DNA of 64,000 bases from a virus (IMGVR_UViG_3300024346_000014:32001-96000), one strand, 5' to 3'; counted from the first letter of the stretch, positions 5,030 to 32,788 are shown. Notes: generated by a model not told the origin, from the letters alone. Made by a program: numbers and translations.

Positions 5030-5826
5030 GTGTTTTTAACAGAATTAGGAATAGAAGTTGCAGCTGTATTCTTTTTGTTATAGAATTCTGTTTTTCCAGC
5101 ATATCTCCAATAAAAACAATTATTAAACCCTTTAGGTTTTCTTTCAGCAATACCTGCTGCTCCTTTAGATGAAGGAGTAGCGGCTAAAAATTCTGTTCTA
5201 CTTCCTACATGTTTACTAGCTGCACTACGGAGTGAACTTGATTTTTGAGCAGATATAGCGTCATTAATTTGAACAGTAGATTCTTCTAAACTTCTTCCTT
5301 TAGATTTACGATATACTTCAATAGCCTCGTCTTTATTATTAATACTATTCCATTTTGCGCCTTTAGCTTTACCATCTTTTACAGGTTGATATTGTCCAGG
5401 TGAAAGTATTACTTTTTGCAATGTTTTTCCATAAGGTTTTCCAGGAGTGTTATATCTGTTGTATATAGCTTGAGCTACATCTGCCATTGCTTGTTTTGAA
5501 CCGCTATAATTTTTAGTGGTATAGTTTTCACAAGCCATTATAACAATTAAAGTCCAATAGTCGGTATTGCCTTGAAGTTTATCTGTTTTTGCTTTAGACA
5601 AGTTTTTTTTATATTGAGCATTTAGATTTTGTATAGAACTAGCGTTTTCTACAGTATGCCAATATTTTTCCCCTGACTTTAGTTGATACTGCCAATTAGG
5701 TGTTTTATCTTTATTTAAGCCCGATCTTCGATATACATATTTTGGTTTAGAAGATATGTAATATTTAGTATACTCGTCTTTATTTTCAAATAAGCGGTTC
5801 CAATTATTATAATTTTTTATGTACAT
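5026..5826 (-). CDS. SleB/Hydrolase_2-like cell-wall hydrolase with leader
   Basis: IMACEN...MADVAQAIYNR...LQKVILSPGQYQPV; leader MYIKNYNNWNRLFE; TATAAATA upstream. Confidence 0.75.
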   Translation of the reverse strand: MYIKNYNNWNRLFENKDEYTKYYISSKPKYVYRRSGLNKDKTPNWQYQLKSGEKYWHTVENASSIQNLNAQYKKNLSKAKTDKLQGNTDYWTLIVIMACENYTTKNYSGSKQAMADVAQAIYNRYNTPGKPYGKTLQKVILSPGQYQPVKDGKAKGAKWNSINNKDEAIEVYRKSKGRSLEESTVQINDAISAQKSSSLRSAASKHVGSRTEFLAATPSSKGAAGIAERKPKGFNNCFYWRYAGKTEFYNKKNTAATSIPNSVKNT

Positions 5827-5903
5827 TTTTAATGATATATTTCTATATTTATTTATACTGGCTTTTTTTCTTAAATAAATAATATTAGCAAAATAATATT
5901 GAT

Positions 5904-6398
5904 ATGGCAGAAATAGCTAGACTTTATCCAAAAATAGATTTTTCAAAAATCAAGTTTTCTAGAATTCCTAAAAATGGTTTTTTAATAGGTTTTAATTCTA
6001 ATAATAACAATAGACTATCTAAAATAGACAGGTCTGGTACTATTACCGTGATAGAATCATTCGAAAGTAAGTCTGATTCTTCTGGTTCTAATTTTAAATT
6101 TTTTGCACAGACGGACGTTCCAAGCGTAGAAAATGATACTGAGTTGCATCATGGTAACATATGGTACGATACAGTTAACGCTATGCCTTATATTTACACT
6201 AAAATAGATGTAGATCATTTCGTATGGCTATCGCTTCAGTCTAATGAAACTGAATCTTCTTTTGAAAGCTTATCTAAAAGTCAAATACTTAGCATAGATC
6301 ATCCGATAGATGGTGAACTTATATATAATAATACAGATCAGGAGTATGTATTCTACAATGGAAGATCTTGGAAAAAAATAATTACTGAAGACTTATAA
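5904..6398 (+). CDS. probable virion structural (fibre-associated) protein
   Basis: GNIWYDT and GELIYNNTDQEYVFYNGRSW beta motifs typical of fibre proteins. Confidence 0.5.
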   Translation: MAEIARLYPKIDFSKIKFSRIPKNGFLIGFNSNNNNRLSKIDRSGTITVIESFESKSDSSGSNFKFFAQTDVPSVENDTELHHGNIWYDTVNAMPYIYTKIDVDHFVWLSLQSNETESSFESLSKSQILSIDHPIDGELIYNNTDQEYVFYNGRSWKKIITEDL

Positions 6399-6399
6399 T

Positions 6400-7026
6400 A
6401 TGGATTTAACTTTATTTCCAAAAAATCCAAGTGTTGGCGAAATAGTAAGAGTAGACGGCAACTCATCAAGGTCTTATAGATGGGATGGCATCACGTGGAC
6501 AGCTTTAAAAAAACCATACGTAGATAGGAAACCCGATGATTATAACCCTAATCAAGGTAGAATGGGTCTTCATAAAAAAATGTCAAAGGACATATTAAAT
6601 GAGAAGCCGGTTATAGATTATTCAACTTCTGCTAATATGGCTAAACTTCAAAATTCTATAGTACGAGGAACTGAATCTATATACATGAACGGTCAACTAT
6701 TATCTGCAGATGACTATAGCATAATTGAAAAAACTATTTATTTTAATTTTGAGATATCTGAAGATTCTTCTTTAATATGTGATTATTCTACATTAACACA
6801 TGTTGAAGTATTTAATGAAATACCGGTGGGTGAAATGGACGGTGTGAATCTAACATTTACATTATTTTCAACACCTGTGCAAAACACTGAGTCGATCTAT
6901 TTTAATGGTGTAAGATTATATGAAGGAAATGATAAAGATTACATAATAATTAATAATATTTTGCAATTATTTTTAGCCCCAACTGAAAAAAGTAGCATAA
7001 AAATAGACTATCATGCTGCAATTTAA
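6400..7026 (+). CDS. probable virion structural protein with duplicated domain
   Basis: FPKNPSVGE...YRWDGITW; two TESIYxNG...DY.I repeats; EIPVGEMDGVNLTFTL. Confidence 0.55.
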   Translation: MDLTLFPKNPSVGEIVRVDGNSSRSYRWDGITWTALKKPYVDRKPDDYNPNQGRMGLHKKMSKDILNEKPVIDYSTSANMAKLQNSIVRGTESIYMNGQLLSADDYSIIEKTIYFNFEISEDSSLICDYSTLTHVEVFNEIPVGEMDGVNLTFTLFSTPVQNTESIYFNGVRLYEGNDKDYIIINNILQLFLAPTEKSSIKIDYHAAI

Positions 7027-7119
7027 AAAAACATTAAAATAATACATTTTTTTAATAAAACAGCCCCTAGAGCGCATATAAATAAACTAGAATAAAGCAA
7101 AAACAATTATAATTATACA

Positions 7120-11142: not shown

Positions 11143-11199
11143 TATTTATTTATTTGTTTTACTACGGAGTAAACCTGTTGTTGATAGCGGGCTAAACTT

Positions 11200-11763: not shown

Positions 11764-12690
11764 CTAGTAACCCGGATATTTTTTAAGTAGCCCTTTAGCA
11801 AATTCCCACATTGCATGCTGCTTGTCACCGTGACCCTGCGTTGTCCAGAACTGCCGTCTGCCTCGGGCAAAAGTTGCGTCATCAGCCCGCTCCATACTAG
11901 CAATAGCGTGTCGGTTTAATATAGCAACTTCATCCCGCTTGTCTAAACTGTTGCCACCAAGTTTTCCATTGTATATTCCAACCACTCCGCCCTGGGTATA
12001 CTCCACTGTTTCTTCCCCTGTTATGTCTAGGTCTAGATGAGGTAGATACCTGTCGCCGGGTCTCAGCTTTACCCTGTAAAGTGATGGCCAAAAACCTCGT
12101 TTAACCCCGGCTAGCACGCTATAAAAAGGCCAGTATCTCTTGTCACCAACCCGGAGTTGATATATGTCACGCCCAGTGAATCCCCACTCCTTAGCAAAAC
12201 TCTCTACTAGGCTATAGGGTTTACCGTAACGGTTTGCTTCAACCAGTGCTGCCTCCTCCTCTAGGGAATCTCTCCGCATCCGGTCTACAATGGCTTCACC
12301 CTCCCCTAAGAGTCGTTGAGCAGATTCACCTCCACTGATCCATGTAAAACTATATTGATAGGCATTAGAGATATCGTTTGTAATATAGAATCCATATCTA
12401 GCACCAATTCCAGAATTACCAATCGCCTCCTCACCGCTAAATAGTTTAACGTTACCCCGGGTTAAATCTGGCATATGACTACCATGGTAATAGTATCCAT
12501 CCGGGCTGGCCTGCATTATCTCCGCCCCAGTAAGAGTACCTCCACGGCTACCTCTCTCTGGTTCCTCCTCTGTTGCGCTCTGTATTAACCTTTGTCTAAG
12601 ACTCTGTTTAGGTTTAGGAACAAGTAGCGTATCTACTTTCATTGTAGGCCATGATTCGTTTAGTTTAAGATATGTCTTTAGGTATTTCAT
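11764..12690 (-). CDS. ADP-ribosyltransferase-fold protein (H-Y-E type) with leader
   Basis: YYYHGS...YGFYITNDISNAYQY...DEVAIL; leader MKYLKTYLKLNES. Confidence 0.6.
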   Translation of the reverse strand: MKYLKTYLKLNESWPTMKVDTLLVPKPKQSLRQRLIQSATEEEPERGSRGGTLTGAEIMQASPDGYYYHGSHMPDLTRGNVKLFSGEEAIGNSGIGARYGFYITNDISNAYQYSFTWISGGESAQRLLGEGEAIVDRMRRDSLEEEAALVEANRYGKPYSLVESFAKEWGFTGRDIYQLRVGDKRYWPFYSVLAGVKRGFWPSLYRVKLRPGDRYLPHLDLDITGEETVEYTQGGVVGIYNGKLGGNSLDKRDEVAILNRHAIASMERADDATFARGRRQFWTTQGHGDKQHAMWEFAKGLLKKYPGY

Positions 12691-12712
12691 TACTGGATTA
12701 TTTATCTAAACT

Positions 12713-13055
12713 GCTACGGAGTAAAACAAGAGTCCGGGGCCGTGAAGACCCTGCCCTCGCCCGTTTATTATAATAATAATACTTCTATACCTAGAGAGAA
12801 ATAAAAAAAAGATCAGGATAAACCTGCTTTAATAACCTCTATAAGAAAACTTCCACTACGGAGTAATCTCTAGAACCAGAAACGGGTAGATCTAGACAGG
12901 AACCCGACCCAACCCTATAAGATAACCTCTACCCGCTGGCCACTACGGAGTAAAACCCTACCCTATACCTGCCCAATCGCGACCCCCTTGGTGTTACCCA
13001 AAATGAGGTTTCTGTGTAAGGTCAAGCCTTGGGGACTCCCAATCCACTACGGAGT
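12713..13055 (+). repeat. cluster of four (A/G)CTACGGAGT direct repeats upstream of the recombinase-like gene
   Basis: Copies at 12713 (G variant), 12855, 12942 and 13046, each followed by AA; AT-rich patch at 12765-12810. Confidence 0.95.
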
Positions 13056-13169
13056 AACCCAGGAGGGGTGTTTCCCGGGTAGGATCGGTTGCGGATACAG
13101 ATTACACTAGTACCCATAGGTTACCTAAGCACCGGTTATGGATATATAAACTTAAATAACACAATAGAT

Positions 13170-13775
13170 ATGACTAAGAGACAGGCTTTAGAAGTAATTG
13201 GGTGTCACTCAACCACTTTAAAGAGGTATATACAGAAGGGATATATCCGTGTAACCAAGTTACCTAACGGGAGATATAACTATTACGAGGATGATGTGTA
13301 TACTATGGTGGGTAAGAGGTTAAAGCGCGAGCATTGGACTGTTTTATATAGCCGGGTGGATTCAAGCAGTCAGGTTAATAAGAAGAAGATGGAGGAGCAA
13401 AAGAGGTTGGCTTACGAGTGGAGTACCAAGAGGGGGCTTACCTTTGACAAGGTTTATGAGGATTGGAGGCCCGCTTCAGATTACAATAGACCTCAGCTTC
13501 TACAGTTGATAGAGGATATATTAAAAAAGCGGGTCGATAATGTAGTAATTGAGACGAGGTGCCGCTTGAGCCGGTTTGCCTTTGGTATCTTTGATATGTT
13601 ATTTAAATATCACGGAGTGGCCCTAATAGTGATGAACCAGTGGATTACAGATCCCCATTACCAGGATGAGCAATCTGCTGACTTGGCCCGGGTCATGAAA
13701 CAATCCGGGTTGGAGAGACTCGAAGGTAATATGTCACAGGTGCCTGAACAGCCTGTTCGTAGACGCAAGGTGTAA
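13170..13775 (+). CDS. IS607-family TnpA-like protein (MerR-type HTH plus serine recombinase domain), catalytic Ser replaced by Asp
   Basis: QALEVIGCHSTTLKRY...LPNGRYNY HTH; YSRVDSSSQ instead of YARVSSxxQ; VVIETRCRLSRF; ATG at 13170 preferred; no tnpB adjacent. Confidence 0.85.
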   Translation: MTKRQALEVIGCHSTTLKRYIQKGYIRVTKLPNGRYNYYEDDVYTMVGKRLKREHWTVLYSRVDSSSQVNKKKMEEQKRLAYEWSTKRGLTFDKVYEDWRPASDYNRPQLLQLIEDILKKRVDNVVIETRCRLSRFAFGIFDMLFKYHGVALIVMNQWITDPHYQDEQSADLARVMKQSGLERLEGNMSQVPEQPVRRRKV

Positions 13776-13854
13776 TTACCTCTGTGTTTGCGATTTACCT
13801 CCGTGTTACTAGTCAACGAGATTCACACACGTGCCCGTAACTATTATCACCCCC

Positions 13855-13880
13855 AAAAACACCACTGGCCTGTGGTGTCT
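13855..13880 (-). terminator. hairpin or terminator closing the minus-strand array
   Basis: aaaaACACCAC-tggcct-GTGGTGT. Confidence 0.55.
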
Positions 13881-13920
13881 CGGGTTATTTGACTTTACCC
13901 TATAAAATCAAACTCAACGT

Positions 13921-15081
13921 TTATAATGTTTGCAAGTTAGCATACTGAAGATCTAGTCCAGTAGTAATTGCTTTATTAAGTAATCTACCACCTTGTGATT
14001 TAAGTGACTCTGGATTAACTATATCAAACTCAGACTTATTACTACCCAAGAAAGTAAGATTGTTAATCACATCCCAGACTGACATGCCTGTTTTAATATT
14101 ACTCTTTTGGCGATCATTCATTTTATATGGATCAAGACCTGTTTTAGCCAATCGCTGTGCACTAGAAGAGAACGCAGGGAAATAACTAGTAACCAGTTTT
14201 CTATAATCCTTAGCCGACTCAGCATCTGGAAACTGCTGCATAATTAAAGCTATACCTGATTCCAATTCTTTAAAGCTTGCACGGGTAGATTGACTTGAAG
14301 CTATTGCTTCTCTAAAACCCCGTGGAACAAAACCAGTTGCCTCAATGCGCTTTATCTGGTTTAAGAATTGATCAATGTTTCCTGGCTTTAAACTCTTTAG
14401 ATTAAACTTTTCACCTACATCGGCAAGGTTACCTGCAACTGCACCGTTACCTAAACCTATTCTCATACCATTAGCACATATCAACCTCTGGTTATAGAGT
14501 TCTAATCCAGTAGTAGTGGGCGTAGTTTTAATAGTAAAACCAAAGTTAAACTCCTCGTCTGCACCCAAGCCTTCCATCTTAATAGGTGATGAATTAATAA
14601 AATTAAAAGTAGTTAAGCCTCCATGACTACCGGCTGATTGTAGACCCATGTTAGGGTTATCGTTGAGTATCTTTTCAGATATATCGCAAATAGTCTCCAT
14701 TGATAACCTGCCACTACTGCTGCCTTTAATTATGTTATTAACTTCTCTCTTCTCTGGATCAGCTATCAATTGATATTGCTGTTGAGCATTATTTGACCTA
14801 ATAGATTTATACTGCTTGATTGCCTTGATGAGTGTAGCATAGATTTGCTCATCATCGTTCTTCATAAAACTAGTAGCTAGTCCACTATTTACATTTACTG
14901 TTTTGGCCAACTTTGCCCAAAAGCCTTTACTCACTGGGACCAACTGTCCCTGTACCTTAATGAAACCGTCTTTGATTCCATTTGTTGTAACATCTATTTG
15001 TTGTAGCGTTACTGTTTTAGTCATGGCATCCCTTGAGATAAGATCCCGTTTTAAAATATCAAATTCTTTTTGTTGTATCAT
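13921..15081 (-). CDS. DUF932/DUF945-like protein
   Basis: GLELYNQRLICANGM motif and C-terminal SVWDVINNLT. Confidence 0.6.
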   Translation of the reverse strand: MIQQKEFDILKRDLISRDAMTKTVTLQQIDVTTNGIKDGFIKVQGQLVPVSKGFWAKLAKTVNVNSGLATSFMKNDDEQIYATLIKAIKQYKSIRSNNAQQQYQLIADPEKREVNNIIKGSSSGRLSMETICDISEKILNDNPNMGLQSAGSHGGLTTFNFINSSPIKMEGLGADEEFNFGFTIKTTPTTTGLELYNQRLICANGMRIGLGNGAVAGNLADVGEKFNLKSLKPGNIDQFLNQIKRIEATGFVPRGFREAIASSQSTRASFKELESGIALIMQQFPDAESAKDYRKLVTSYFPAFSSSAQRLAKTGLDPYKMNDRQKSNIKTGMSVWDVINNLTFLGSNKSEFDIVNPESLKSQGGRLLNKAITTGLDLQYANLQTL

Positions 15082-15109: not shown

Positions 15110-16243
15110 CTAATCCTGGTTGATAAGATTAACTATTTCAAAATCTGTCTCCTGCCCCTCTTCTTGTTCCACTACGGAGTTATCCTCAATGGTTTCATTT
15201 CCCATGCCTAAGAATACTCTATTAAAAGTTTCCTCTGCCTCACGCTTACGTTCCAACTCAGTAGACTCCATTTGTTTCACAGTTTGCGTAGATTCAAAGC
15301 GTTCCTTATCATACTTAATCTTGCCATCTTCAAGAGTATAGTAAAGTGGTTTATTAATATTACTTCCACCTCTACGGTTCTTTGAGAACTCTAAGTAACG
15401 TGCACCTTCTGTGTCAAATCTAAACTCTAACATTGCAGTGGTAGCATGCTTGAGATATGTACTACCTACATAGGTTCCTCCTTTGGTAAGGTGTTGAATT
15501 GCCAAGACTGCTATACCCATTTTATCTGCTGCGCTAATCATAATGTTAGTTAACCAGGTTTCAGCGTATGTAGCTTTCCACCCAAGTATATCTTTAAACT
15601 TTACCACCATGTCTTGAAAACTATCAAGTAGTACAACATCATAGTCTCCACTAAATGCAACTTTCTCTAACACCTGGTCCATGTTGCCTGTATGGATATA
15701 ATCCATCATTAACAGGGTTGGAATATCCCCAATGATAGGTGTCTTTTCTTTATAGAAATATATGTCATTACGGGTCATCTCTGAGCTTACATAGAGTATA
15801 TTAGCATCAGGGTTATTCTGCTTAAGATTAGCTATAACATCTAACATCACTGTACTTTTACCTACTCCGGATTCTCCAACAACCACGGTAACCGTTCCAG
15901 TATATTGGCCTCCGCCTTCTTCATGATCTGATAAAAGCTCGTCAATATAAGTATTAGACTTAAGTAATCTAAAATTAGGAAATTCCAAATCATTAATTGC
16001 CACTACGGAGTCAGCCGCATCTATTACATTTGTCTCTACTTGTTCAGGTGTTTCTTGAGATTCACTCTTTATATCTTTCATAATACCATTAAGCATTCCA
16101 TATGAAATGGTGTGTTCAGTTACATCACGCTTTAGTTTGTCATATAGGTCTACCATGCTGGTTCCCTCTGGGTAACGTGTGAAGTTGTCATTAAACCACT
16201 GACGAATGGATTGCTCTTTTTTTCCTCCTTTAATCTCTATCAT
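15110..16243 (-). CDS. RecA-superfamily ATPase, RadA/Sms-like core
   Basis: Walker A GESGVGKST, LYVSSE, Walker B VLLDSFQ, HLTKGGTYVGSTYLKH, KNRRG. Confidence 0.85.
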   Translation of the reverse strand: MIEIKGGKKEQSIRQWFNDNFTRYPEGTSMVDLYDKLKRDVTEHTISYGMLNGIMKDIKSESQETPEQVETNVIDAADSVVAINDLEFPNFRLLKSNTYIDELLSDHEEGGGQYTGTVTVVVGESGVGKSTVMLDVIANLKQNNPDANILYVSSEMTRNDIYFYKEKTPIIGDIPTLLMMDYIHTGNMDQVLEKVAFSGDYDVVLLDSFQDMVVKFKDILGWKATYAETWLTNIMISAADKMGIAVLAIQHLTKGGTYVGSTYLKHATTAMLEFRFDTEGARYLEFSKNRRGGSNINKPLYYTLEDGKIKYDKERFESTQTVKQMESTELERKREAEETFNRVFLGMGNETIEDNSVVEQEEGQETDFEIVNLINQD

Positions 16244-19490: not shown

Positions 19491-20007
19491 CTAAAACCGT
19501 TTAACCTTTGTGATGATTATTCTGGATTCTTCCGGATTATTCTTTTCTCCTATGAAAACTATACCCTCGTCTCTAACGGTGTCAGCTGTTTTTCTGTAAG
19601 TATGGGTGGACTCCTTTATTCCGGCCATCCATAGCCCTATGTTATATGCTTTTTTTACTGTTCCACATACCGCAGTCGTATCCCAAAAAGTGTTTACTAC
19701 GGAGTGATCTTCCCCTGGCACTATGTCTTTACTTATTGTTACTAAGTATAATATCTTCTTTGATTCCATCTATTATAATTTTTATTTTACTACATTTTTC
19801 ATACTCCTCTAAGATTGTAAAATGATCTTTCATTTTTTCTAATGCATCTATCTTTTCAGAAACACTATACTTTTCACTTAACATTTCATCAGGACATCTT
19901 ATTAATATTTTATATATTACTTTATAAAAAACATCTTTATTATGGTCCTTTAAAAAAGAAAGCAATTTTAAAGTATCAGTATTTTGTATTAATTTTTTCC
20001 AATCCAT
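19491..20007 (-). CDS. two short ORFs (19491-19769; 19729-20007 with UVR-like EEYEKC motif)
   Basis: Overlapping ORFs; EEYEKC also occurs in 27597..27917. Confidence 0.65.
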
Positions 20008-21326: not shown

Positions 21327-22504
21327 TTATGCAATTAGTTTGCCTTGCTCTTGAACCTGTTGGTTAAAATAGATTTCCATAGATTCCTCTTCTTTTAACT
21401 TAGTTGCAACCCATATTATTTGAGCTTTAGCTCTCTGACGTTTTTTACGTGTTTCAGCTGCGCTGCCTCCTTTAATACAGTTTGATACTGAGTTAAGAGT
21501 ATTTAAGTATGACCTAAGATACCTTACATTACCTATAGTTATTCTTCTTAAATCTATAAGATCTGCTAGTTTTTCCCTATTAACTTGTTGAGCCAATATC
21601 TCCTTCGCCAAGACATCAAGCCTTTCCTGTTCCTGTTTAGATTCTATTATATTGTTTATCCACTTTAACATATCTATATTATACTAAAAATTTACTACGG
21701 AGTAGTTTCCTGTAGAGCCTCTTCCCTCTCTTTTATTATCTGATATACTACTTCATCTACTACTTTATCATATATGGCCATTTGGTCTTTGGTAAAGTCA
21801 GGGTACTTAGCGCCATGGTCGCATTTAATAAACTGTTCTAGTTTTTCAAAAGAATCCCTATCATCCATATATAGGTCTAATTCATCGAGCATTTCTTCAT
21901 AGAATGGATTTATACTCTGTTCTCCCCATGATTCTTGAAATACATTACCGTTTCCGTTATTGCAGAAATCATAGTATAACCTGCATATTGCCCTTAGCAT
22001 TTTACCATGGTCTGTTTCTGCTTCGCCTGATGCAGGTACTAGTTCCTTTTCTAATTTATCAAATTCTTTTTGATATGCACCATCCTCTTTCCAATAACTT
22101 TTACCTTTGCGTGTGTTCTTTTTCTTCATTCCTTTTTTTTTAAACTCTATTTGCAATATAACCTACTGGATCCTTGATTCCTTTGGATTCCAAGTATTCT
22201 TTTAAACCTTCTTCTTCGTATACTATTGAGTCAGCTATGTCATATGCTTCGTCATCTGGTATACCGCTGCTGAATCCTAGATCCTTTAGCAATTTCTGTA
22301 ACCTTTCTTCTGTGTACTTTGCCATGTCTATCCTTTTAATATATTAGTTAATCTTGCTGGTATTACTTTGGTGTAATTACAAGTGTCACAGCACCTTCCG
22401 TCTTCAACCAGGGGATCTGCATTATGACCCTGGTCCCAGAATACTTTACCCGTTGATGAGTCTACTTGTTTCTCGATTTCTTCTTTACAAATTGAACATT
22501 CCAT
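21327..22504 (-). CDS. four short ORFs (21327-21671, 21695-22156, 22140-22325, and 22328-22504, a Cys-rich ORF missing from the track)
   Basis: 22328-22504 reads MECSICK...GHNADP...GRCCDTCN...VIPAR behind an array promoter. Confidence 0.7.
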
Positions 22505-23513: not shown

Positions 23514-23589
23514 AAAATCTACAATAGTAGCTCTTGAATAGTTATTATACTAAATGTTTACTACGGAGTAGCCTTTATCTAAATATTTT

Positions 23590-24475: not shown

Positions 24476-24546
24476 AATTATTTGTTTTTGTTATATAGCT
24501 AATATACTAATAATCTACACAATAAAAAAATCCTGTGTAATAAAGT

Positions 24547-24771: not shown

Positions 24772-24884
24772 AATTATTTTGTTTTTGTTATAGTATAAAT
24801 ATAATAATAATTCTTCACAAATAAAAACTTTTGTGCAATTAGTTTACCTCCATGTTCTGTGGATTCAGGATTCAAGTAAACCCT

Positions 24885-24909
24885 AAAAAACCCGGTATAA
24901 AACCGGGTT
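24885..24909 (-). terminator. intrinsic terminator
   Basis: aaaaAACCCGG-tataaaa-CCGGGTT. Confidence 0.85.
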
Positions 24910-24918
24910 GATATTATT

Positions 24919-25335: not shown

Positions 25336-25471
25336 CCTTTCTTTTTTTAATTATTATTATTAATTTGTTATACTATAAATATAACTATTACTTTACACAA
25401 ATAAAAACTTTTGTGTAAGTATTATACCTTTGTCTATATTGTACTGGCTGTGATTTACCAAACCTGTATGC

Positions 25472-25498
25472 AAAAAAAACCCGCAATAAATGCGGGTT
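25472..25498 (-). terminator. intrinsic terminator after the sigma gene
   Basis: aaaaaaAACCCGCA-ataaa-TGCGGGTT. Confidence 0.85.
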
Positions 25499-25572
25499 AA
25501 AAATACCTACGTCCTCGATTCACTACTTTCAAGTGGAGCCCGGTTCACGGCGGTCACTACGGAGTAACCTTT

Positions 25573-26292
25573 TTATACAGCTACTCTTAATTCAGAGAGT
25601 GTCTTATTAACTATTCTACTTACTCCAACTTTAGACATACCAAACTCATCTGAAAGTAACTGGCCTGTTAATGGATAGTCTCTACCTATTCCAAAGTAAG
25701 CTTTAACGATTTCCCTGTCTTTATCTCTATTGATTTTATTCAAGTACTTATTTACTAGATCGTTTATAAACTCATCTTGGTATTTTGTTTCTATACTAGG
25801 TTGACATTGATTAAACATATCTCCATATGTAGCATTACCTTCATCGCTTATCTTCTGGTCTAAGCTAAGTGTGTTTAAGTTAGCTACTTCTTTACCCGCT
25901 TTTTTAGCTTTAAAGATATCAAACTCATGGTTCATTGGTAATCTTACGATTCTCCCAACGGTTGCCACTGAGTCATTGATATACTTTTTAATCCAGAGTT
26001 GAGCGTAACTTGAAAATTTGGATTTTCCAGGCGTAAACCTTTTTAAAGCTTCCATGGTTCCAATGTTTCCTTCCTGAACCAGATCCATTACCGGAACTCC
26101 TTGTCCCATGTATTTGTTAGCTGCTTTAACTACCATCTTACTGCAACTATTAACCACACGATTAATTGCTTTAGAGTTGCCCGATTGAGCTAATGGGATT
26201 AATTCTAATTCCTCCTCTTTAGTTAAAGATTTACTTGTTGATTCTACTTCTCTAAAATATAGAGCTAATTCTCTTGATGCTTCAAATTTCAT
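25573..26292 (-). CDS. sigma70-family RNA polymerase sigma factor
   Basis: LTKEEELEL, DLVQEGNIGTMEALKRF...KFSSYAQLWIK, RIVRLP, LSLD, region-4 HTH. Confidence 0.92.
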   Translation of the reverse strand: MKFEASRELALYFREVESTSKSLTKEEELELIPLAQSGNSKAINRVVNSCSKMVVKAANKYMGQGVPVMDLVQEGNIGTMEALKRFTPGKSKFSSYAQLWIKKYINDSVATVGRIVRLPMNHEFDIFKAKKAGKEVANLNTLSLDQKISDEGNATYGDMFNQCQPSIETKYQDEFINDLVNKYLNKINRDKDREIVKAYFGIGRDYPLTGQLLSDEFGMSKVGVSRIVNKTLSELRVAV

Positions 26293-26394
26293 AATGATTA
26301 TTTTTGTTTTGTTATTAATTGTTATACTGTAAATATAATAAAAGTTTACACAAATAAAAATTCCTGTGTAAAAAGTTTACCTCTAAGTTAATTT

Positions 26395-26872
26395 TTAGTC
26401 TACTACGCCACTACGGAGTGATTCTAATCTAGTGATTCTTCTTCTAAGTTTCGCTCTTAGTTTTCTCTTCTCTAATTTTCTAAAATATGGACCGTGGTTA
26501 TAAGGCGTATACCCCTGTGGTCCAGCCCATGCTGATTCTATTCGAGTTCGGTCTGTTTCTAGGAAAAGGATACGGGACTCGATACCCCGTATCTCTTCTT
26601 TAACCTTTTCTACTTGTGTCATCTTAGCCTTCCCAAACTTCTGATGAATGTGAAACAGATCTCCATGATTGATTCTGAATACAAAAGAACGGTGTTACTC
26701 CAGTAGGCCTACGACCTGTTCCACTGGGACGTTTATCAAAAGGAATTTCCTCTAGATTAGTTGTTCCATATGCTTCGCGTAATTCGCCGCCTACTTTCTT
26801 GAAATAGAATTTAACAATCCCTGTTGTTAATAGTTCTCTTAAACCTGTGTGTGTTACTGATGATTTTGCCAT
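26395..26872 (-). CDS. 26395-26622 hypothetical; 26624-26872 WYL_2/DUF2693-like SH3 beta-barrel
   Basis: IVKFYFKKVGGELREAYGTTN...QSWRS. Confidence 0.7.
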
Positions 26873-27305
26873 AATTATTTTGTTTTTGTTATAGTATAAA
26901 TATAATCATTTATTACATAAAATAAAAATCCTGTGTAAAAAGTTTACCTCTGTGAATATATTAAATTACTTTAATTAAATCTTTAAGTTTACTTCTTATT
27001 TCCTGATTCATTTTTATATTACCACTTTGTGTAAGCACTACCGATGGACCTTGTAATGATAATATATAATCAGCATAAGTAAAGCCTTCTTTTTTTAAGA
27101 TATCTTCTACTATTTTTATTGTATTCATAAGTATTTTGTTTTTAAGTTATAAGTAAATATAAGAATAATTATACACAATAAAAAACTATTGTGTAAGTAT
27201 TATACCTTCAAGAAAAAGGATACAGGATCATTGGTGTAAACCTGTTACTAAACCCTAAAAAAGGCGAACCTAATAGATTCACCTTTTAGTAGTTTAGTTT
27301 AGTTA

Positions 27306-27566
27306 TTAAGAATTAACTAGAGTTTCGTTTCTTTTTGCAGAGAAATCTTTAATTACTTGAAAGTTTTTCTTTCTTCCTCTTGTAAGGTCATATGCTGCGT
27401 TAAGAACTCTTCCGTTTTCAGTCTTGCCTTCGATAACATTCTTTACCGTTGTTGGACTAAATTCTGTTTTTCTTGCTACTTTTGACATATCACCATGTCT
27501 AAGTCTTTGATTAACCACTACTAATTTTTGAACAGTAGATAGTTTTTTGTAGGTTGTGTTACTCAT
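27306..27566 (-). CDS. small HTH-like DNA-binding protein
   Basis: GDMSKVARKTEFSPTTVKNVIEG; terminator at 27256-27287. Confidence 0.55.
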   Translation of the reverse strand: MSNTTYKKLSTVQKLVVVNQRLRHGDMSKVARKTEFSPTTVKNVIEGKTENGRVLNAAYDLTRGRKKNFQVIKDFSAKRNETLVNS

Positions 27567-27596
27567 ATAAATATTATTTTTTTGTATAATCTTATA

Positions 27597-28330
27597 CTAG
27601 GATTGAGTTACGGGTTTTACTTTGATGTTAAATTTTTCAATTAACTGATTTCTTACAGATAATATAACTTGACATTTTTCGTATTCTTCCTTTTCTTTGT
27701 ATTCTTCCTCCATAACATGAAGGTCTTCTAAAACCGCTAAATGACAATGCTTTAACATTATCGGCGCTTCACTGTAATACTCTAAATCTTTGGTTAATTG
27801 ATGAGAGTATACATCAAGTAATGCATACTCCATTATTTCTTTATCTTCTTCTGCTATTACTAATTCCTCTTTCATACTATCGAGAAACCATTTATCTTCT
27901 TTATCTAAAAATGACATTAAAACATTGGGTAATTTTTATTGCTTAATGATTGACCATTCAGCATTATTTTTTAGAACAGCTTTAAACCTATTACCTTTAC
28001 CTTCTAAAGTATACATGATACCGGGTTCTGCATGTTTAATATTTAGTTCGCAATCTATTTTATATTTTTTAAAAATAGCCTTGCTTATATTAAAATAGTC
28101 TTGTTCTATATTTCTCATTTACTATTGTTATTTTTAAAAGTGATACCATTATGTAAACAGTAAAGAACTACTACTCCATTTAAAGTTCCTATAAAAAACT
28201 TCCATATACCTGAATCTATTGCTGTTGCAAAACACCACATTAGGTATGATATCGCTAATATTCCTATAGTTAAAAACAATAGAAATGCATAATATATTAT
28301 ACTGCGTAATATGTTTTTGGTTTTTTCCAT
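27597..28330 (-). CDS. three short ORFs (27597-27917, 27936-28118, 28115-28330 membrane)
   Basis: Coupled ORFs behind the array promoter at 28343. Confidence 0.65.
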
Positions 28331-28519
28331 AATTATTTGTTTTTGTTATAGTATAAATATAATAATAACTATACACAAAAGGAAATATTTGTGCAACTAT
28401 TATACCTTCACAACTTTACTACAGATACTGCAACCTAAAGGTACGTTTACTACTGTACCTCCACATGTTAGCACCGATCTAACTTCATAAGGGTATTGCA
28501 CCTGCCAGACCGGTCCTCA

Positions 28520-28543
28520 TAAAAAAACCCGCCGAAGCGGGTT
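28520..28543 (-). terminator. intrinsic terminator
   Basis: AACCCGC-TTCG-GCGGGTTTTTTT on minus. Confidence 0.92.
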
Positions 28544-28564
28544 CATAACAAAAAAACAACACTA

Positions 28565-28804
28565 CTATGTAGTAGCCCTATTGAAAATATTAATCAATTT
28601 ATCTTTATCTCCAGGTCTCCATACAGGTTCTCCTATCTCCATCTCGATTCCTTCTTCCTCCATCATAGCTTCCTTCATTCTGGATTGCCATTGTTTTACA
28701 TCGCCTCCTGGCATAAACTGGTCGCAGTAAGCATAGTCTGCTAGTAAACCAAACTCTTTATTAGTTAAGTTTAATGCTTGGGTTAATTCTTGTTTTGTCT
28801 TCAT
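28565..28804 (-). CDS. hypothetical protein (true start MKTKQEL)
   Basis: The track's longer N-terminus is the translated promoter element. Confidence 0.7.
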   Translation of the reverse strand: MKTKQELTQALNLTNKEFGLLADYAYCDQFMPGGDVKQWQSRMKEAMMEEEGIEMEIGEPVWRPGDKDKLINIFNRATT

Positions 28805-28872
28805 ATTTTTATTATTAATTGTTATACTATAAATATAATAATAATTCTTCACAAATAAAAACTTCTGTGCAA

Positions 28873-29941
28873 TTAGCTTACCTCTATGAATACGTGCTTT
28901 GGTGGATTCTTTACAAAGTTATAGTTTGTAAACCATGCTTGGTATTCTGCTTCAAACTGGGTCTTACATGGTTGACAAAGATGTCTAACTCCTAAGTTAC
29001 CTTGCTTGTATTCTATTATACCTCCAGGTTGAAAGTATTGGGATAAGCTAGCAATGTCTTTTCTTTCGTGAATACTTCCACATTTGTCACATTGGTATTC
29101 TGTTGTTTTTCCTGATAGTCTCATATTGCTTAGATTTAATTAAGTTAATTTGTTCTCTAATATATTGTGCCCAATCATTAAAACTTTGAGCCGGTTCTTT
29201 TGGATATACTGTCTTCATGTTACTACGGAGTGATTATTAATGAAACTCTTTTTACTTCTTCTTCAGAGAAGGTTAATACTAAATCACCTCGATACTCATG
29301 TAACTTAGGTAACTTATGACTATACTTACCTTCAACACCAAACCTGTTTCTCAAGTAGAGAGATATGTCTAACATATCATCGCAGTTTAAACCATCCCTG
29401 AAAACCAAACGTTTCCAACCTGGGAGATGCCTCTCCTCCATTGAAGATACCTGAACGCCAGGACAATGTTGTTTAAAATCTTTTTTTAATGCTGTTAGTT
29501 CCTTGCTCATGTTATTATGTATATTATACTATAAATATTAAAGATTATTATCTAGATCCAAATCTAATGATTCTTCAACTAGCATTACGGTAATTTTACA
29601 AAATGCTTTATCATCGAGTTGAGCTTTTTCATACCTCCGTGCTAAGATGGTTAAGCCTAAGTAATCCATTACTTCATTGTTATGTTGCTCAACTATTTTA
29701 GCATACGTTTCGTCTGCATTACCTTCACTTGCGAATTTAAATATTTCTTGAATCATTACTTAGAGATTTTAGTTACTGACTTATCTAATACCATCATTGT
29801 CGCCACCGTCACCGCAGACACTGCGAGAAGAAGAGTTAATCCACTTAATAGGAAACTTAATACTGCGAAAGAAAGTCTCGCTGCGATCACCATTACTATT
29901 ACTAGAAATAGAAACTTAAAGAAAAATTTAATTGTTGTCAT
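28873..29941 (-). CDS. four short ORFs (28873-29124 zinc ribbon; 29223-29510; 29538-29756; 29756-29941 membrane)
   Basis: CDKC...CQPC; 29223 ends TP* on the 10-mer motif. Confidence 0.65.
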
Positions 29942-30106
29942 AATTGTTTTGTTTTAATTGTTATAAGTAAATATAACTATTACTTTACACAAATAAAAAC
30001 TTTTGTGTAATTATTTTACCTCTATGTTATGTGGATTCAGGATCCATGTAGACCCTAAAAAACCCGGTAGGAAACCGGGTTAATCTATCTTTTCTTTTTT
30101 TAATTA

Positions 30107-30439
30107 TTATTCCCCTATTACATAATTGTCCCAGGCTGTGTATAAATATAATTCATCGCGGTACATAGCACATCCGTCAACCATATAACTATCATACCCT
30201 ATTTCTTCACCTGTTATTTTTCCTATGTAACTATCTAATTGAGCATTAGGTCTTTCTTCTAGTATTTTATTCCACTCTTTTTTCCAACTGCTAGCCTTTT
30301 TGTGATTTTCTAGATTAAAGAACTCTAATGTTTCTTCGAGGAAATCAACCTTGTCTTTACTAAATGTTTTGATTTCAGTGTGACCGTCGTATTCGCGACA
30401 AAACAATTCTACCGTGGTTTCTACTACTTCGTCTTTCAT
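30107..30439 (-). CDS. hypothetical acidic cassette cargo
   Basis: Own promoter; terminator at 30057-30081. Confidence 0.75.
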   Translation of the reverse strand: MKDEVVETTVELFCREYDGHTEIKTFSKDKVDFLEETLEFFNLENHKKASSWKKEWNKILEERPNAQLDSYIGKITGEEIGYDSYMVDGCAMYRDELYLYTAWDNYVIGE

Positions 30440-30864
30440 CCTTTCCTTTTTAATTATTATTATTAATTTGTTATACAGTAAATATAACTATAATATTACA
30501 TATAATAATTGTTTTGTGTAATAAAGTTAACCTTCTTAAATAGGGATCGGGCTACTAACGCAGAGGTAGTGTAGTAAAGATACCTTCGTATCTAGAGCAC
30601 GTAGTAAAGTCACAGAGGTATTGCACCTGCTAATTGGGAAAAATCTTTGGGTTAATATCAAAACCGTGTTTTTCTTGGATTTCTTCTAACATTTTAATTG
30701 CTTCCTCTATGTTACCATCTTTTATGGAAAGTATAGCAATCTCTATGTCTTCTATTAAATCTATATTCATAGCTTTGTTTTTATTATATATCCCTACAAC
30801 CCCCGAAAAGCCTACGGTTAAGTAGACTAAACAGGTAACATAAAAACAAGTCTTAAATACTTTA

Positions 30865-31638
30865 CTACGGAGTGGCTGTTTGTTTCTCTGGAAACGCAAC
30901 CTTTAATTTAATATCATTTACTAATTCTTTTGCAAGTTCTAAAGTATTATTAACCTCATCAATAACTACATACTCATCTTTGGTATGATAACTATGATAC
31001 CCTGCTGCAAGATTCAAGCAAGGAAATCCAAACTTAATCATTAATTGATACACATCTGTATAAGGGTGACGTTGCCATTTAGTAATTCCTCTTTCTTTTA
31101 AGATAGGTTCTACTGTTCTTCCAAACGGGCTATCAATTTCAAAGAGAGCCTTGTTCATTAGAGTCATACTCATAGTGTCACCTTCTGGACTATCAAATTG
31201 TATTGCGTAATCTACATTACTGAAAAATTCAGGATCTGCTTCTTTACTTCCAATCATTCCAAACTCTTCGCCTACAAAGAATGCTACCTTCACGTTATCT
31301 AGCTGGTCTAGCATTTCAAGACAAAGATAAACTCCACATTTATCATCGCCTCCAATTCCAAGTTTAGAATGATCAACGCAATCTCTACCTTGAAGATGTC
31401 CTGCTGGGTTTATGTAAACTTCTAATCTTTCGTTTACTTTATGTACAGTGTCAGTATGACTAATAAAGCAGGGATACTGTTCAGCATCACCCTTAGTGAC
31501 ATAGATGCTCCCTAATTTATCTACTGTATAATTTAGCTTGGCTTCTTTTAAATACTCCTCTAGGAAGTTTATCATTTTGTCTTCTTCACCAAAATATGTG
31601 GGAATAGATAATACTTTTGTTAGTAATTCTTGATTCAT
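30865..31638 (-). CDS. M20/M28-family metallopeptidase
   Basis: SHTDTVH, GGDDKCG, GEEFGMIGS, QFD, YHSYHT. Confidence 0.88.
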   Translation of the reverse strand: MNQELLTKVLSIPTYFGEEDKMINFLEEYLKEAKLNYTVDKLGSIYVTKGDAEQYPCFISHTDTVHKVNERLEVYINPAGHLQGRDCVDHSKLGIGGDDKCGVYLCLEMLDQLDNVKVAFFVGEEFGMIGSKEADPEFFSNVDYAIQFDSPEGDTMSMTLMNKALFEIDSPFGRTVEPILKERGITKWQRHPYTDVYQLMIKFGFPCLNLAAGYHSYHTKDEYVVIDEVNNTLELAKELVNDIKLKVAFPEKQTATP

Positions 31639-31704
31639 TGTTTTTGTTTTTAATGTTATACTATAAATATAATACTAAAACCTGCTCTAAAAAAATAAAA
31701 CAGG

Positions 31705-32196
31705 TTAAAGTTGACCTCTAAGATAAGATAATATTACCTCTTTTTCCTGGTTCCAAACCTTAGCGAAATCTGGATTTAAACCAATAGAATCCTGATTATC
31801 TTTTATATCAGCAAACTTAATCTGCTTTGCCTCTTTGCTGATACCGCCTAGTCTTCTGGCTTCAAGTAATTTTCTTGCTTTACGATTTAACAAAGGAAAA
31901 TCCTGTTTTACAAAAACATCTGTTAATTCTATAACCATCTTTAAGATATACTCTGCATCTTGACTAGTCCATATTTTATGTAAAGCAACTCTTAATTGCT
32001 CAATTGTTACCTCCGTATCTTCAATGACATCATGTAACAATGCAGCTGCAATTTGACATTCACTCCCACCTTCTTCTTCAATACGTTTAGCTACTCTAAT
32101 AGGATGAGTAATATATAAGTCATTTGAATACTTACGGGTCTGTTCTCCATGAGCAGCCGTTGCTAATTCTAAAGTTTTTTGTAATGGTTGAGTCAT
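31705..32196 (-). CDS. HD-domain small alarmone hydrolase (SpoT/Mesh1-like)
   Basis: AHGEQTRK...YITHPIRVA...AALLHDVIEDT...IKFADIKDN. Confidence 0.85.
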   Translation of the reverse strand: MTQPLQKTLELATAAHGEQTRKYSNDLYITHPIRVAKRIEEEGGSECQIAAALLHDVIEDTEVTIEQLRVALHKIWTSQDAEYILKMVIELTDVFVKQDFPLLNRKARKLLEARRLGGISKEAKQIKFADIKDNQDSIGLNPDFAKVWNQEKEVILSYLRGQL

Positions 32197-32788
32197 TATT
32201 TCTTTTTGTTATATAGTAAATATAATAATAAATTACACAATATAAAAATCTTGTGTAATAAAAAAAGGAGAAAGTTACCCTCCTCCTTTTAGATCTAATA
32301 CGGTAGTCTGTTTATCTTGGCGTGCCGTTCCAGTCTAAATCCACTGTTGCTATTAATAAGTATAAGGTAAGTGTCCAATAAGGGTCTTCTTCCGAAGGTT
32401 TAATTGTTTGGAACCCTAAACAGAATCTATCGTGTGGCCAATGAAAACTAATCATTAACCTCCAACCATTTTCTAACATATGTTTATTGGTAATTTTATA
32501 TCTTATACTGAAATGTTTCCTGCTGGTTCTATTAAATAAACCCCCAACAACCAGACCTGAGTCTGGTTGCTACTACGGAGTAAACCTTTTATTACTTTAA
32601 GAATTCATATATCTTTTCATCCATCTCTTCGTCATGTTTCATCCAATTCCAAAAGTAATCTACTTTATCTTTTTCATACCTCTGTCTTGCTTCTTCTAAA
32701 TCTCTAGTTTCTTTTAGGAAACTTAATATGTGATAATGAAATGCCCAGTACTGTGTTGTTAATTCGCTCATAATTATTTTATTTTATT

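What the first reader, a model, noticed from the sequence alone, without database searches (positions are those of the whole stretch)
5224..32581. Strand-polarised, quasi-periodic 10-mer ACTACGGAGT written into genes in all three frames
Seen: exact plus-strand copies at 5224, 11161, 12855, 12942, 13046, 15171, 16002, 19696, 21694, 23560, 25556, 26410, 29222, 30864 and 32572 (15), with variants at 11544, 12713 and 38087. I found none in the opposite orientation and none after 38.1 kb. A rough expectation at 30% GC is about 0.03 per strand per window. Within minus-strand genes it is read as xSVV (15171, 16002, 19696), LRS (5224, 26410) and TP-stop (21694, 29222, 30864), so selection acts on the DNA, not the protein. 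Spacings include 1998, 1866, 1996, 1642, 1708 and 2125 bp. It is an imperfect palindrome (ACT-ACGG-AGT). Inference: oriented cis sites such as programmed single-strand nicks (known in T5 and phiKMV-like phages), translocation or ejection signals, Chi/KOPS-like sites, or operators.
Basis: partly seen in the sequence, partly recalled or inferred. Interest (0 to 1): 0.85.

Follow-up and report, generated by a model that had tools for sequence, protein, structure and literature searches.

The report
Polar DNA sites around dead transposase
A ten-letter DNA word repeated in one direction through part of a giant T4-like ocean phage is a conserved protein-recognition site clustered around a disabled, domesticated transposase gene, an arrangement the literature searches run here did not find described.

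Summary
ACTACGGAGT occurs 15 times on + and 0 times on − (0.04 expected), and nowhere else in the 125.6-kb contig. The proposed ~2-kb periodicity is not supported.

It is a conserved functional site. The same word, or the sister word ACTCCCTAGT, recurs strand-specifically in over 100 related viral and metagenome contigs. At homologous positions it is 120/120 identical while flanks are 72.5% identical.

In complete ~270-kb relatives all 10-12 copies lie in one 8-11-kb module: sigma factor, RadA-like ATPase, unknown protein, and an IS607-type TnpA lacking its catalytic serine. Sites are densest around that gene: upstream of it, inside it, and in arrays with a 56-58-bp period.

The core sits in a 14-bp near-palindrome whose centre is always asymmetric. 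In one clade, sites flipped in place at homologous positions. That rules out promoter and RNA-signal readings and means the site is read as double-stranded DNA.

Best reading (about 0.5): binding sites for the dead TnpA, with a regulatory or architectural role. Programmed strand-specific nicks remain a live, untestable rival. Chi/KOPS-like signals, packaging signals and active recombination are disfavoured.

The parts
5224..5233 (-). site (reads ACTCCGTAGT on the gene-sense minus strand), inside a 266-aa cell-wall-hydrolase-like ORF
11161..11170 (-). site, 29 nt after the upstream stop and 18 nt before the ATG of a DOT1-like methyltransferase gene
12713..12722 (-). one-mismatch site (exact in the close relative L164), 22 nt before the ATG of the 308-aa ORF
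12855..12864 (-). array site 3 upstream of the TnpA-like gene
12942..12951 (-). array site 2 (87 bp from site 3)
13046..13055 (-). array site 1 (104 bp from site 2), 114 nt upstream of the TnpA-like start codon
13170..13775 (+). F1: catalytically dead IS607-type TnpA-like protein (winged HTH plus serine-recombinase fold); proposed reader of the sites
12700..13900 (.). GC-rich island (about 44% against about 32% GC) holding F1 and the array; conserved in 18 of 18 lineages examined
13921..15081 (-). F3: conserved 386-aa protein of unknown fold, syntenic with F0 and F1
15110..16243 (-). F0: RadA/Sms-like ATPase carrying two sites
15171..15180 (-). site near the 3' end of the ATPase gene (starts 71 nt before the end of its stop codon)
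16002..16011 (-). site in the unconserved N-terminal linker of the ATPase; kept in the relatives examined
19696..19705 (-). site, 23 nt after an ORF stop
21694..21703 (-). site whose TAG is the upstream stop codon; 10 nt upstream of a TATAAT (−35 position of a TAGTATAAT-type promoter-like word)
23560..23569 (-). site 10 nt upstream of a TATAAT; two terminator hairpins follow, starting about 55 and 95 nt downstream
25556..25565 (-). site 7 nt after the stop of the sigma-factor gene; a terminator hairpin starts 57 nt further downstream
25573..26292 (-). F2: 239-aa sigma-70-family factor, flanked by sites on both sides
26410..26419 (-). site 117 nt upstream of the sigma gene's start, near the 3' end of a 75-aa ORF
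29222..29231 (-). site whose TAG is the upstream stop codon; the next ATG is 3 nt downstream
30864..30873 (-). site whose TAG is the stop codon of the 257-aa M28-peptidase-like ORF
32572..32581 (-). site 10 nt after an ORF stop, followed directly by a hairpin

Best explanation
ACTACGGAGT (ACTCCGTAGT on the gene-sense strand) is the core of a recognition site read as double-stranded DNA. The full site is a 14-bp near-palindrome, KKACT-CCGT-AGTMM, with half-site centres about one helical turn apart and a centre that is always asymmetric. It belongs to one gene module of a clade of ~250-270-kb T4-like phages. The most likely reader is the module's own catalytically dead, domesticated IS607-type TnpA, which has a winged HTH and a serine-recombinase fold used as a dimer scaffold. 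By analogy with active IS607-family TnpAs, it would nucleate on the arrays beside and inside its own gene, regulating itself. It would also occupy or bridge the dispersed sites at gene boundaries across the module, which spans 27 kb here and includes the sigma-factor gene and the RadA-like ATPase. The result would be control or insulation of that module's expression or DNA transactions. Shown: the site is real, selected at the nucleotide level, read as dsDNA, confined to the module, and centred on the TnpA-like gene; the protein lacks its nucleophile. Inferred: that this protein is the binder, and what binding does.
For: (1) Selection on the word. There are 15 copies on + and 0 on − against 0.04 expected. 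At 12 homologous positions in 4 closer relatives the site is 120/120 identical and the ±40-nt flanks 696/960. The ATPase-linker copy persists in the same frame with unrelated flanking residues and shifted position. (2) Lineage-wide presence. In 34 viral loci (some redundant) there are 102 sense copies; the only 12 antisense copies are all in L116, and loci lacking the exact word carry the sister word ACTCCCTAGT. In 80 metagenome loci the counts on the ATPase-sense strand are CCGT 237 and ACGG 59. (3) dsDNA-level reading. In one clade the same homologous positions, with conserved flanks, carry either orientation: L197 3:3, L201 3:2, L203 8:1, and L204/L206/L207 all flipped. At least 11 lineages carry a site on the antisense strand inside the TnpA-like gene. 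(4) One compact site. Among 217 non-redundant sites only K-K-core-V-V is conserved, with no second block within ±60 nt; the −1 and +1 flank compositions mirror each other. The perfect-palindrome forms occur once each in 1.46 Mb. (5) Local to one module. In five complete or near-complete 253-271-kb genomes all 10-12 copies lie in one 8-11-kb block. (6) Centred on the TnpA-like gene. tblastn found the gene in 30 of the 34 viral loci, at the same syntenic place. A profile search found it in L119, one of the four without a hit; in L111, L115 and L141 the same search found none, and L112 was not searched. Of 31 distinct genes with at least 300 nt of upstream DNA and an upstream site, 26 have a site within 150 nt of the ATG. 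Nine of those have it at 22-30 nt, whichever way the site points. In-gene sites at offset 190-235 occur in 15 of 37 genes. Arrays with a 56-58-bp period lie beside the gene. (7) Family behaviour. [quoted passage not shown] (8) Dead enzyme. The nucleophile position is Ser in 1 of 50 distinct homologues; the rest are D, N, G, A, P, K or T. (9) The exact word is shared by phages of 32-54% GC. This favours a phage-encoded reader over a host-encoded one (inference).
Against: No binding was observed or modelled; the attribution rests on association, geometry and family precedent. The sigma factor, ATPase and F3 co-occur with the sites just as faithfully, so co-occurrence cannot single out the TnpA-like protein. 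IS1535 motifs are direct repeats each read by one domain, whereas this site is a hetero-palindrome: one ACTCC half plus one ACTAC or ACTAG half. A simple symmetric homodimer does not explain the obligatory asymmetry or the near-uniform polarity. No protein feature tracks the flipped clade: the wing insertion also occurs in CCGT-only lineages. No fixed distance to promoters was found, so the regulatory output is undefined. The published phage nick motifs share most of the formal properties.
Confidence: 0.5

Rival explanations
1. Programmed strand-specific nick sites in virion or replicating DNA, as in T5, phiKMV-like and tf/LUZ24-like phages. The asymmetric centre would determine which strand is cut. 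The dead TnpA could even act as the specificity subunit, so this is not exclusive of the best explanation.
For: Published nick motifs share the formal signature. Phage tf has 14 nicks, all in one strand, in 5'-TACT/RTGMC-3'; relatives carry a one-base variant at similar positions. The phiKMV-like consensus CGACxxxxxCCTA/CTCCGG shares A-CTCCG with this site (PMC3517423, passages). WACTRTGAC is strand-biased in 61 divergent phages, concentrated in one part of the genome, with enzyme and function unknown (PMC11780129, passages). Here the word is strand-exclusive, has 10-15 copies and shows single-base lineage variants. A site with one canonical and one non-canonical half is a plausible way to get single-strand cleavage (inference). 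Fill between closely spaced sites is about 20 GC points above the locus mean, which would keep short nicked segments annealed (inference).
Against: Sites occupy only 3-10% of the genome, in one module, not much of the genome as described for tf. No nuclease candidate was found: F3 has no fold match (best E 0.067) and the TnpA-like protein lacks its nucleophile. Some genomes carry mixed orientations. No read-level data were available, only assembled contigs.
Confidence: 0.2
2. Replication-origin iterons. The TnpA-like protein would act as an origin-binding initiator on the arrays beside and inside its own gene, with the neighbouring RadA-like ATPase as its motor. This is a functional sub-case of binding by the TnpA-like protein.
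For: Arrays lie next to and inside the binder's own gene. Synteny with a RecA-fold RadA/Sms-like ATPase is conserved. An AT-rich stretch abuts the window's array.
Against: Most sites are dispersed over 8-27 kb at gene boundaries, not in one origin. The 56-58-bp spacing with GC-rich fill seems unlike typical iteron arrays (my recollection). No consistent AT-rich unwinding element was seen across lineages.
Confidence: 0.1
3. Promoter element for a phage sigma factor or RNA polymerase, in the manner of a middle promoter or MotA box.
For: Sites are co-oriented with genes in most lineages, enriched at gene ends (7 of 15 within −10 to +30 nt of a stop against 1.27 expected), and sometimes directly follow terminators (14 of 199 against about 5 expected). 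T is almost never at +1 (1 of 217). The phage encodes two sigma factors.
Against: Sites flip in place at homologous positions without any change in gene order. Sites inside the opposite-strand gene keep the block's polarity. There is no second block within ±60 nt. An ATG lies 2-6 nt after the site in several cases. Other promoter-like words exist upstream of genes.
Confidence: 0.03
4. RNA-level signal on early transcripts, such as an endoribonuclease cleavage site (RegB-like logic), or a shared 5' tag or seed of small RNAs.
For: Sites lie at intergenic or 3'-end positions. Terminators start about 55-57 nt downstream of two window sites. Arrays have units of 57 nt.
Against: A flip in place changes the RNA sequence to its complement. 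The flanks do not covary, so there is no hairpin, and array units share no fold. The symmetric flanks point to duplex recognition.
Confidence: 0.03
5. Active site-specific recombination sites, giving cassette excision or shuffling by the neighbouring serine recombinase.
For: A serine-recombinase-fold gene lies next to the arrays, and the sites are directly repeated with symmetric arms and an asymmetric centre.
Against: The nucleophile Ser is present in only 1 of 50 homologues. Gene order is conserved across the 13 lineages mapped. None of the three joints listed across four independent metagenome runs lies at a site, and long contigs run through sites unchanged.
Confidence: 0.03
6. Genome-wide polar signal: Chi- or KOPS-like, or a packaging, ejection or translocation signal.
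For: Strict strand polarity.
Against: All copies lie in one 8-11-kb block of complete ~270-kb genomes. The module is not inverted relative to the terminase gene in the flipped clade. Mixed orientations exist.
Confidence: 0.01

Closest known systems
Subterminal binding motifs of IS607-family serine transposases (IS1535 TnpA)
   Same: Short motifs (9 bp there, a 10-bp core here) are repeated in one orientation and clustered beside the tnpA gene. The protein has an N-terminal winged helix followed by a serine-recombinase fold. The active enzyme binds cooperatively, spreads over about 70 bp and pairs DNA segments (PMC6188088, passages read).
   Different: The phage protein lacks the nucleophile (Ser in 1 of 50) and scores below the curated family cut-off (100.1 against 110 bits). 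There is no TnpB, no element ends and no mobility: synteny is fixed in every lineage mapped. Sites are hetero-palindromic, spaced 56-58 bp or kilobases apart, and dispersed over 8-27 kb.
Programmed nick motifs of phages tf/LUZ24-like, phiKMV-like and T5
   Same: A strand-exclusive 9-10-nt word with roughly 10-15 copies, conserved across divergent relatives with single-base variants at similar positions. It shares ACT or A-CTCCG with the published consensus sequences.
   Different: Physical nicks were not tested here. Sites are confined to one small module of a ~270-kb genome. Arrays with a 57-bp period and mixed orientations in some genomes were not mentioned in the passages I read.
T4 middle-promoter MotA boxes (recalled, not from a call)
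   Same: A ~10-bp oriented word interleaved with early promoters in the early and middle gene block, often inside or at the end of upstream genes.
   Different: There is no −10 partner at fixed spacing. Sites flip in place and occur antisense to local genes.
Clustered binding sites next to their binder's gene: lambda O iterons inside gene O, ParB-parS (recalled, not from a call)
   Same: Near-palindromic sites are concentrated in and around the binder's own gene, with further copies nearby.
   Different: The centre is obligatorily asymmetric and polarity is near-uniform. The binder here would be a dead transposase.

Membership tests
IS607-family serine transposase TnpA (for the gene at 13170-13775) | N-terminal MerR-like or winged HTH followed by a serine-recombinase catalytic domain | tested here: met
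   Pfam Resolvase 4.8e-11 plus weak MerR_1. The best solved-structure hits are IS607-family catalytic domains 3lhf, 3ilx and 6dgc. phrog_6620 'transposase' 4.5e-27.
IS607-family serine transposase TnpA | Score above the curated cut-off of NCBIfam NF033518 | tested here: not met
   100.1 bits against a cut-off of 110.
IS607-family serine transposase TnpA | Catalytic serine nucleophile in the Y-x-R-V-S-S-x-x-Q motif | tested here: not met
   Asp in the window protein when aligned to 3lhf and 3ilx. Ser in 1 of 50 distinct homologues.
IS607-family serine transposase TnpA | Part of a mobile element (variable location, often with TnpB) | tested here: not met
   Same syntenic position in all 13 lineages mapped, with no TnpB-like neighbour.
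IS607-family serine transposase TnpA | Binds short repeated motifs flanking its gene | not testable with these tools
   The arrangement is present, but binding was not assayed.
Phage programmed nick motifs (tf/LUZ24-like, phiKMV-like, T5) | Short consensus present on one strand only | tested here: met
   15:0 in the window contig and 10-12:0 in five near-complete genomes. Exceptions are the mixed loci L197, L201, L203, L208 and L210.
Phage programmed nick motifs | Physical single-strand interruptions at the motif in virion DNA | not testable with these tools
   Only assembled contigs of DNA metagenomes were available.
Phage programmed nick motifs | Sites spread over a large part of the genome | tested here: not met
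   All sites lie within 8-11 kb of 253-271-kb genomes and within 27 kb of the 125.6-kb contig.
Sigma-factor or MotA-type promoter element | Second element (−10) at fixed spacing, and orientation tied to the downstream gene | tested here: not met
   No second block in 217 sites. Sites flip in place and occur antisense.
Chi/KOPS-like genome-polar words | Genome-wide, replichore-scale skewed distribution | tested here: not met
   Confined to one module.
Site-specific recombination sites (res, attC-like cassettes) | Active recombinase, and rearrangements with junctions at the sites | tested here: not met
   Nucleophile lost, synteny conserved, and none of the three listed joints in four runs lies at a site.

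The most novel reading that the evidence does not exclude
A domesticated, catalytically dead serine transposase has become the sequence-specific core of a polar DNA-marking system in giant T4-like phages. It would bind hetero-palindromic sites whose asymmetric centre directs a strand-specific event at gene boundaries of one module. That event could be a nick made by a recruited partner, or a directional barrier or bridge. Polarity would be kept uniform by concerted evolution and has been reversed site by site in one clade. If so, this would supply the missing specificity factor and a tractable model for the long-unexplained programmed nicks of phage genomes.
Probability: 0.2. Interest if true: 0.9.

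Novelty: new variant of a known kind. Interest (0 to 1): 0.78.

Why it matters
This system offers an unusually clean case. It has an exactly conserved word, a defined module, a single strong candidate reader of known fold, natural orientation variants, and arrays with a fixed period. It would also be an example of a serine (IS607-type) transposase domesticated by a virus as a DNA-binding protein. My searches found none described (listings only). It may also show how uncultured ~270-kb marine and other environmental T4-like phages organise a gene block that contains their own sigma factor.

Tried and rejected
1. Tandem-pair scan of viral contigs. It gave 3 unrelated contigs. Whole-record counts (1+2, 4+0 and 0+2 copies) and the sequences show chance-level hits, one of them a tandem repeat that happens to contain the word.

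2. The conserved promoter-leader word was scanned in viral contigs with 0 hits. Single-protein scans with the ATPase and the TnpA-like protein found no relatives. The alignment-based and portal-based scans did.

3. INPHARED phages, near-identity mode: only the tRNAs matched.

4. Rfam. At gathering thresholds only 3 tRNAs matched. At E-value threshold on 12400-14000 there was one chance-level hit.

5. Sequencing runs. No RNA holder was listed, and all 24 runs are DNA metagenomes kept as contigs. Laying 4 of those 24 runs showed no variant inside any site and no joint at a site. Contigs cannot show nicks or RNA ends, so this tests neither.

6. Terminator coupling is weak: 14 of 199 sites lie within 40 nt after a hairpin, against about 5 expected.

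7. An ECF-like −35 or a −10 partner was looked for by eye and in the pooled profile; none was found.

8. Hairpin extension: the −1 and +1 positions do not covary.

9. Module inversion as the cause of the flipped clade is rejected. The ATPase and the terminase gene are co-oriented in G000, G014, G016 and G019.

10. The wing insertion in the TnpA-like protein as the cause of the flip is rejected. It is also present in CCGT-only lineages.

11. F3 identity: no Pfam, PHROG, PADLOC or NCBIfam hit. Atlas neighbours carry DUF932 in only 15-25% of members. The AlphaFold model (pLDDT 78) has no PDB fold match.

12. PADLOC gave only weak generic ATPase and sigma-factor hits.

Supplementary files of the nick papers, which hold their site tables and figures, were not opened.

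Full report
OBSERVATION. ACTACGGAGT occurs 15 times in the window, at exactly the coordinates given. All copies are on + and none on −, against 0.04 expected from 100 dinucleotide-preserving shuffles. The window is bases 32001-96000 of a 125,649-bp viral contig that CheckV rates 49% complete. That contig holds the same 15 copies and no others. One-mismatch copies (4536, 12713, 38087, 45420) are also all on +. Genes in the region run on the minus strand, so the gene-sense reading is ACTCCGTAGT. In three copies the internal TAG is the stop codon of the upstream ORF. Seven of 15 copies lie within −10 to +30 nt of a stop codon, against 1.27 expected (p about 2e-4). The stated spacings are correct. 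A 2-kb period is not supported: 174 spacings pooled from 23 sources are broadly distributed with a median of 832 bp.

THE GENOME. The contig is a T4-like myovirus. It encodes a gp20-type portal, a T4-type large terminase, UvsW, a family B DNA polymerase, a DNA alpha-glucosyltransferase and a thymidylate-synthase-family enzyme. Complete relatives are 253-271 kb, one of them with terminal repeats. The runs that hold this DNA are marine metagenomes.

CONSERVATION. Portal-based relatives with only 67-70% portal identity carry the identical word. G010 has 15 copies on one strand within 22 kb. G012 has 7 copies and G009 has 2, in both cases running to a contig end. An ATPase alignment (A1) retrieved 34 viral loci, some of them redundant. 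They hold 102 sense copies; the only 12 antisense copies are all in L116. Loci lacking the exact word carry ACTCCCTAGT instead, at 6-12 copies on one strand. Eighty metagenome loci add 237 CCGT and 59 ACGG copies on the ATPase-sense strand. At 12 alignable homologous positions in four closer relatives the site is 120/120 identical, while the ±40-nt flanks are 696/960 identical. The copy in the ATPase N-terminal linker is kept in the same frame in three phages, but shifted by several codons among unrelated residues. Selection therefore acts on the nucleotide word.

ANATOMY OF THE SITE. Pooling 217 non-redundant sites shows conservation only of K-K-ACTCC(G/C)TAGT-V-V. T is almost never at +1 (1 of 217), and no second block appears within ±60 nt. 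The −1 and +1 flank compositions mirror each other, so the full site is a 14-bp near-palindrome with half-site centres about 10 bp apart. The −1 and +1 bases do not covary, so the site is not an extended hairpin. The centre is always asymmetric: the two perfect-palindrome forms occur once each in 1.46 Mb of fetched loci.

WHERE THE SITES ARE. In five complete or near-complete genomes all 10-12 copies lie on one strand in a single 8-11-kb block. The block is a conserved module:
- a 239-aa sigma-70-family factor, flanked by sites;
- several small genes;
- a RadA/Sms-like ATPase with site(s) in its linker;
- a ~386-aa protein of unknown fold;
- on the opposite strand, a protein with a MerR-like winged HTH and a serine-recombinase domain.

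Sites avoid deep coding sequence (35% observed against 65% for random positions) and are enriched at stop codons. Only 14 of 199 directly follow a terminator hairpin.

THE NEIGHBOUR. The recombinase-like protein is IS607 TnpA-like. Its best solved-structure hits are IS607-family catalytic domains, and it matches the PHROG 'transposase' family. Against the NCBIfam IS607 model it scores 100.1 bits, just below the 110-bit cut-off. The nucleophile serine is Asp in the window protein, and it is Ser in only 1 of 50 distinct homologues. tblastn found the gene in 30 of the 34 viral loci, always in the same place. A profile search found it in L119, one of the four loci without a hit; in L111, L115 and L141 that search found none, and L112 was not searched. 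It is therefore a domesticated, catalytically dead TnpA and not a stray insertion sequence. Its surroundings are the hub of the sites:
- Of 31 distinct genes with enough upstream DNA and an upstream site, 26 have a site within 150 nt of the start codon. Nine have it at 22-30 nt, whichever way the site points.
- Fifteen of 37 genes carry a site inside the gene at offset 190-235, on the antisense strand. It lies over the degenerate catalytic loop and encodes T-T-E or L-G-S.
- Arrays of 2-5 sites with an exact 56-58-bp period and unrelated GC-rich fill lie beside the gene.
- The gene is 6-16 GC points richer than its locus in 18 of 18 lineages, and the region upstream of it is also richer in all 18.

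READ AS DUPLEX DNA. In one clade the same homologous positions, with conserved flanks, carry the site in either orientation. The positions include the site upstream of the TnpA-like gene, the ATPase linker and F3. Genomes range from mixed (L197 3:3, L201 3:2, L208 4:1) to uniformly flipped (L204, L206, L207). The two orientations differ at two positions, and the single-step intermediates are the palindromes that are almost never seen. The module is not inverted relative to the terminase gene in the flipped clade. A promoter or an RNA element could not flip in place and keep serving the same genes. The contig also has other promoter-like words upstream of its genes.

MECHANISM. Active IS607-family TnpA nucleates through its winged-helix domain on short (9-bp) directly repeated motifs beside its gene. 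It then spreads over about 70 bp and pairs DNA segments (PMC6188088, passages read). The most economical reading is that the dead phage TnpA binds these sites, regulates itself, and occupies or bridges the sites at gene boundaries of the module. Binding and its consequence are inferred, not shown. The obligatory asymmetry and the near-uniform polarity are not explained by a simple symmetric dimer.

RIVALS. Published phage nick motifs (tf/LUZ24-like, phiKMV-like) are formally very similar and even share part of the word. Their enzyme and function are unknown. Nicks could not be tested here, because only contigs were available. The confinement to one module, and the lack of any nuclease candidate, argue against a classical genome-wide nick system. 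A nick directed by the dead TnpA remains the boldest reading not excluded. Origin iterons are a possible functional sub-case. Active recombination is disfavoured by the lost nucleophile, the conserved synteny and the absence of joints at sites. Chi/KOPS-like and packaging signals are disfavoured by the local distribution.

NOVELTY. The word is not reported as a phage signal in the 20 of 114 full-text hits that were listed, all of them eukaryotic primer or probe sequences. Searches for a domesticated or inactive IS607 TnpA in phages, and for such motifs in T4-like jumbo phages, returned nothing relevant (listings only). I rate it a new variant of a known kind: binding-site arrays of a transposase-derived DNA-binding protein, with properties close to phage nick motifs.

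Noticed in passing
window 17943-36229 (minus-strand genes): Eleven copies of a conserved early-promoter-plus-leader cassette; the plus-strand word TTTTTGTTATA has 14 copies in the whole contig. On the gene strand it has a TTGTG..A box, a TATAyT box, then TATAACAAAAACAAATAATTATG, often with an inverted repeat. It is interleaved with the sites and resembles the promoter-early stem-loop cassettes described for T4-type phages (recalled, not read).
   Followed up: partly
L022, contig 20001-23100 (outside the window): Thirteen tandem small plus-strand genes, each preceded by AAACCAAAACAA and most starting ATGAGTAAAG: a paralogous early-gene family.
   Followed up: no
L024, contig 125018-125649 (contig end): Long in-frame 9/27-nt repeats (TCAAGGTAC, 27 copies) that look like a collagen-like Gly-X-Y repeat protein, cut by the contig end.
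   Followed up: no
window 25573-26292 (-) and L022:11075-11974 (+): Two sigma-70-family factors in one phage: 239 aa with regions 2 and 4, and 299 aa with regions 1.2 and 2. Both match RpoS/RpoD-type models well below cut-off. Their promoters are unknown. ATAAATAA-type and TAGTATAAT-type words are enriched upstream of genes.
   Followed up: partly
window 13921-15081 (-): F3 is conserved in all 17 relatives searched (29-37% identity). Its AlphaFold model has pLDDT 78, with no PDB fold match (best E 0.067). Atlas neighbours carry DUF932 in 15-25% of members.
   Followed up: partly
window 13778-13788 and 13797-13807: Two ACCTC(T/C)GTGTT words just downstream of the TnpA-like gene. They partially match the site in the opposite orientation, so ACGGAG-type words flank the gene as inverted repeats.
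   Followed up: no
window 23437-23506 (-): Two identical 29-nt terminator hairpins in tandem.
   Followed up: no
window 44222-45883 (+): A phage-encoded PAS-domain protein with a histidine-kinase-type ATPase domain.
   Followed up: no
L023:1671-3095 (-) and window 3923-5029 (+): A DNA alpha-glucosyltransferase homologue and a 368-aa thymidylate-synthase-family protein with an insertion. Together they suggest hypermodified, glucosylated DNA.
   Followed up: no
window ~12781: In run X12 one contig matches up to 12781 and then continues with unrelated sequence. This may be a strain variant at the edge of the GC-rich island.
   Followed up: no
L197:7883, L203:8833, L206:8779, L208:8832, L210:4865: The site inside F3 in the flipped clade reads Leu-Arg-Ser in both orientations, because positions 4 and 7 of the site are third codon positions. 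The flip is therefore synonymous there.
   Followed up: partly
window 17037-17325 (-): A cluster of tRNA-Met, tRNA-Arg and tRNA-Leu genes followed by two strong terminators. The tRNA-Arg is the only part of the region with DNA-level matches in known phages.
   Followed up: no
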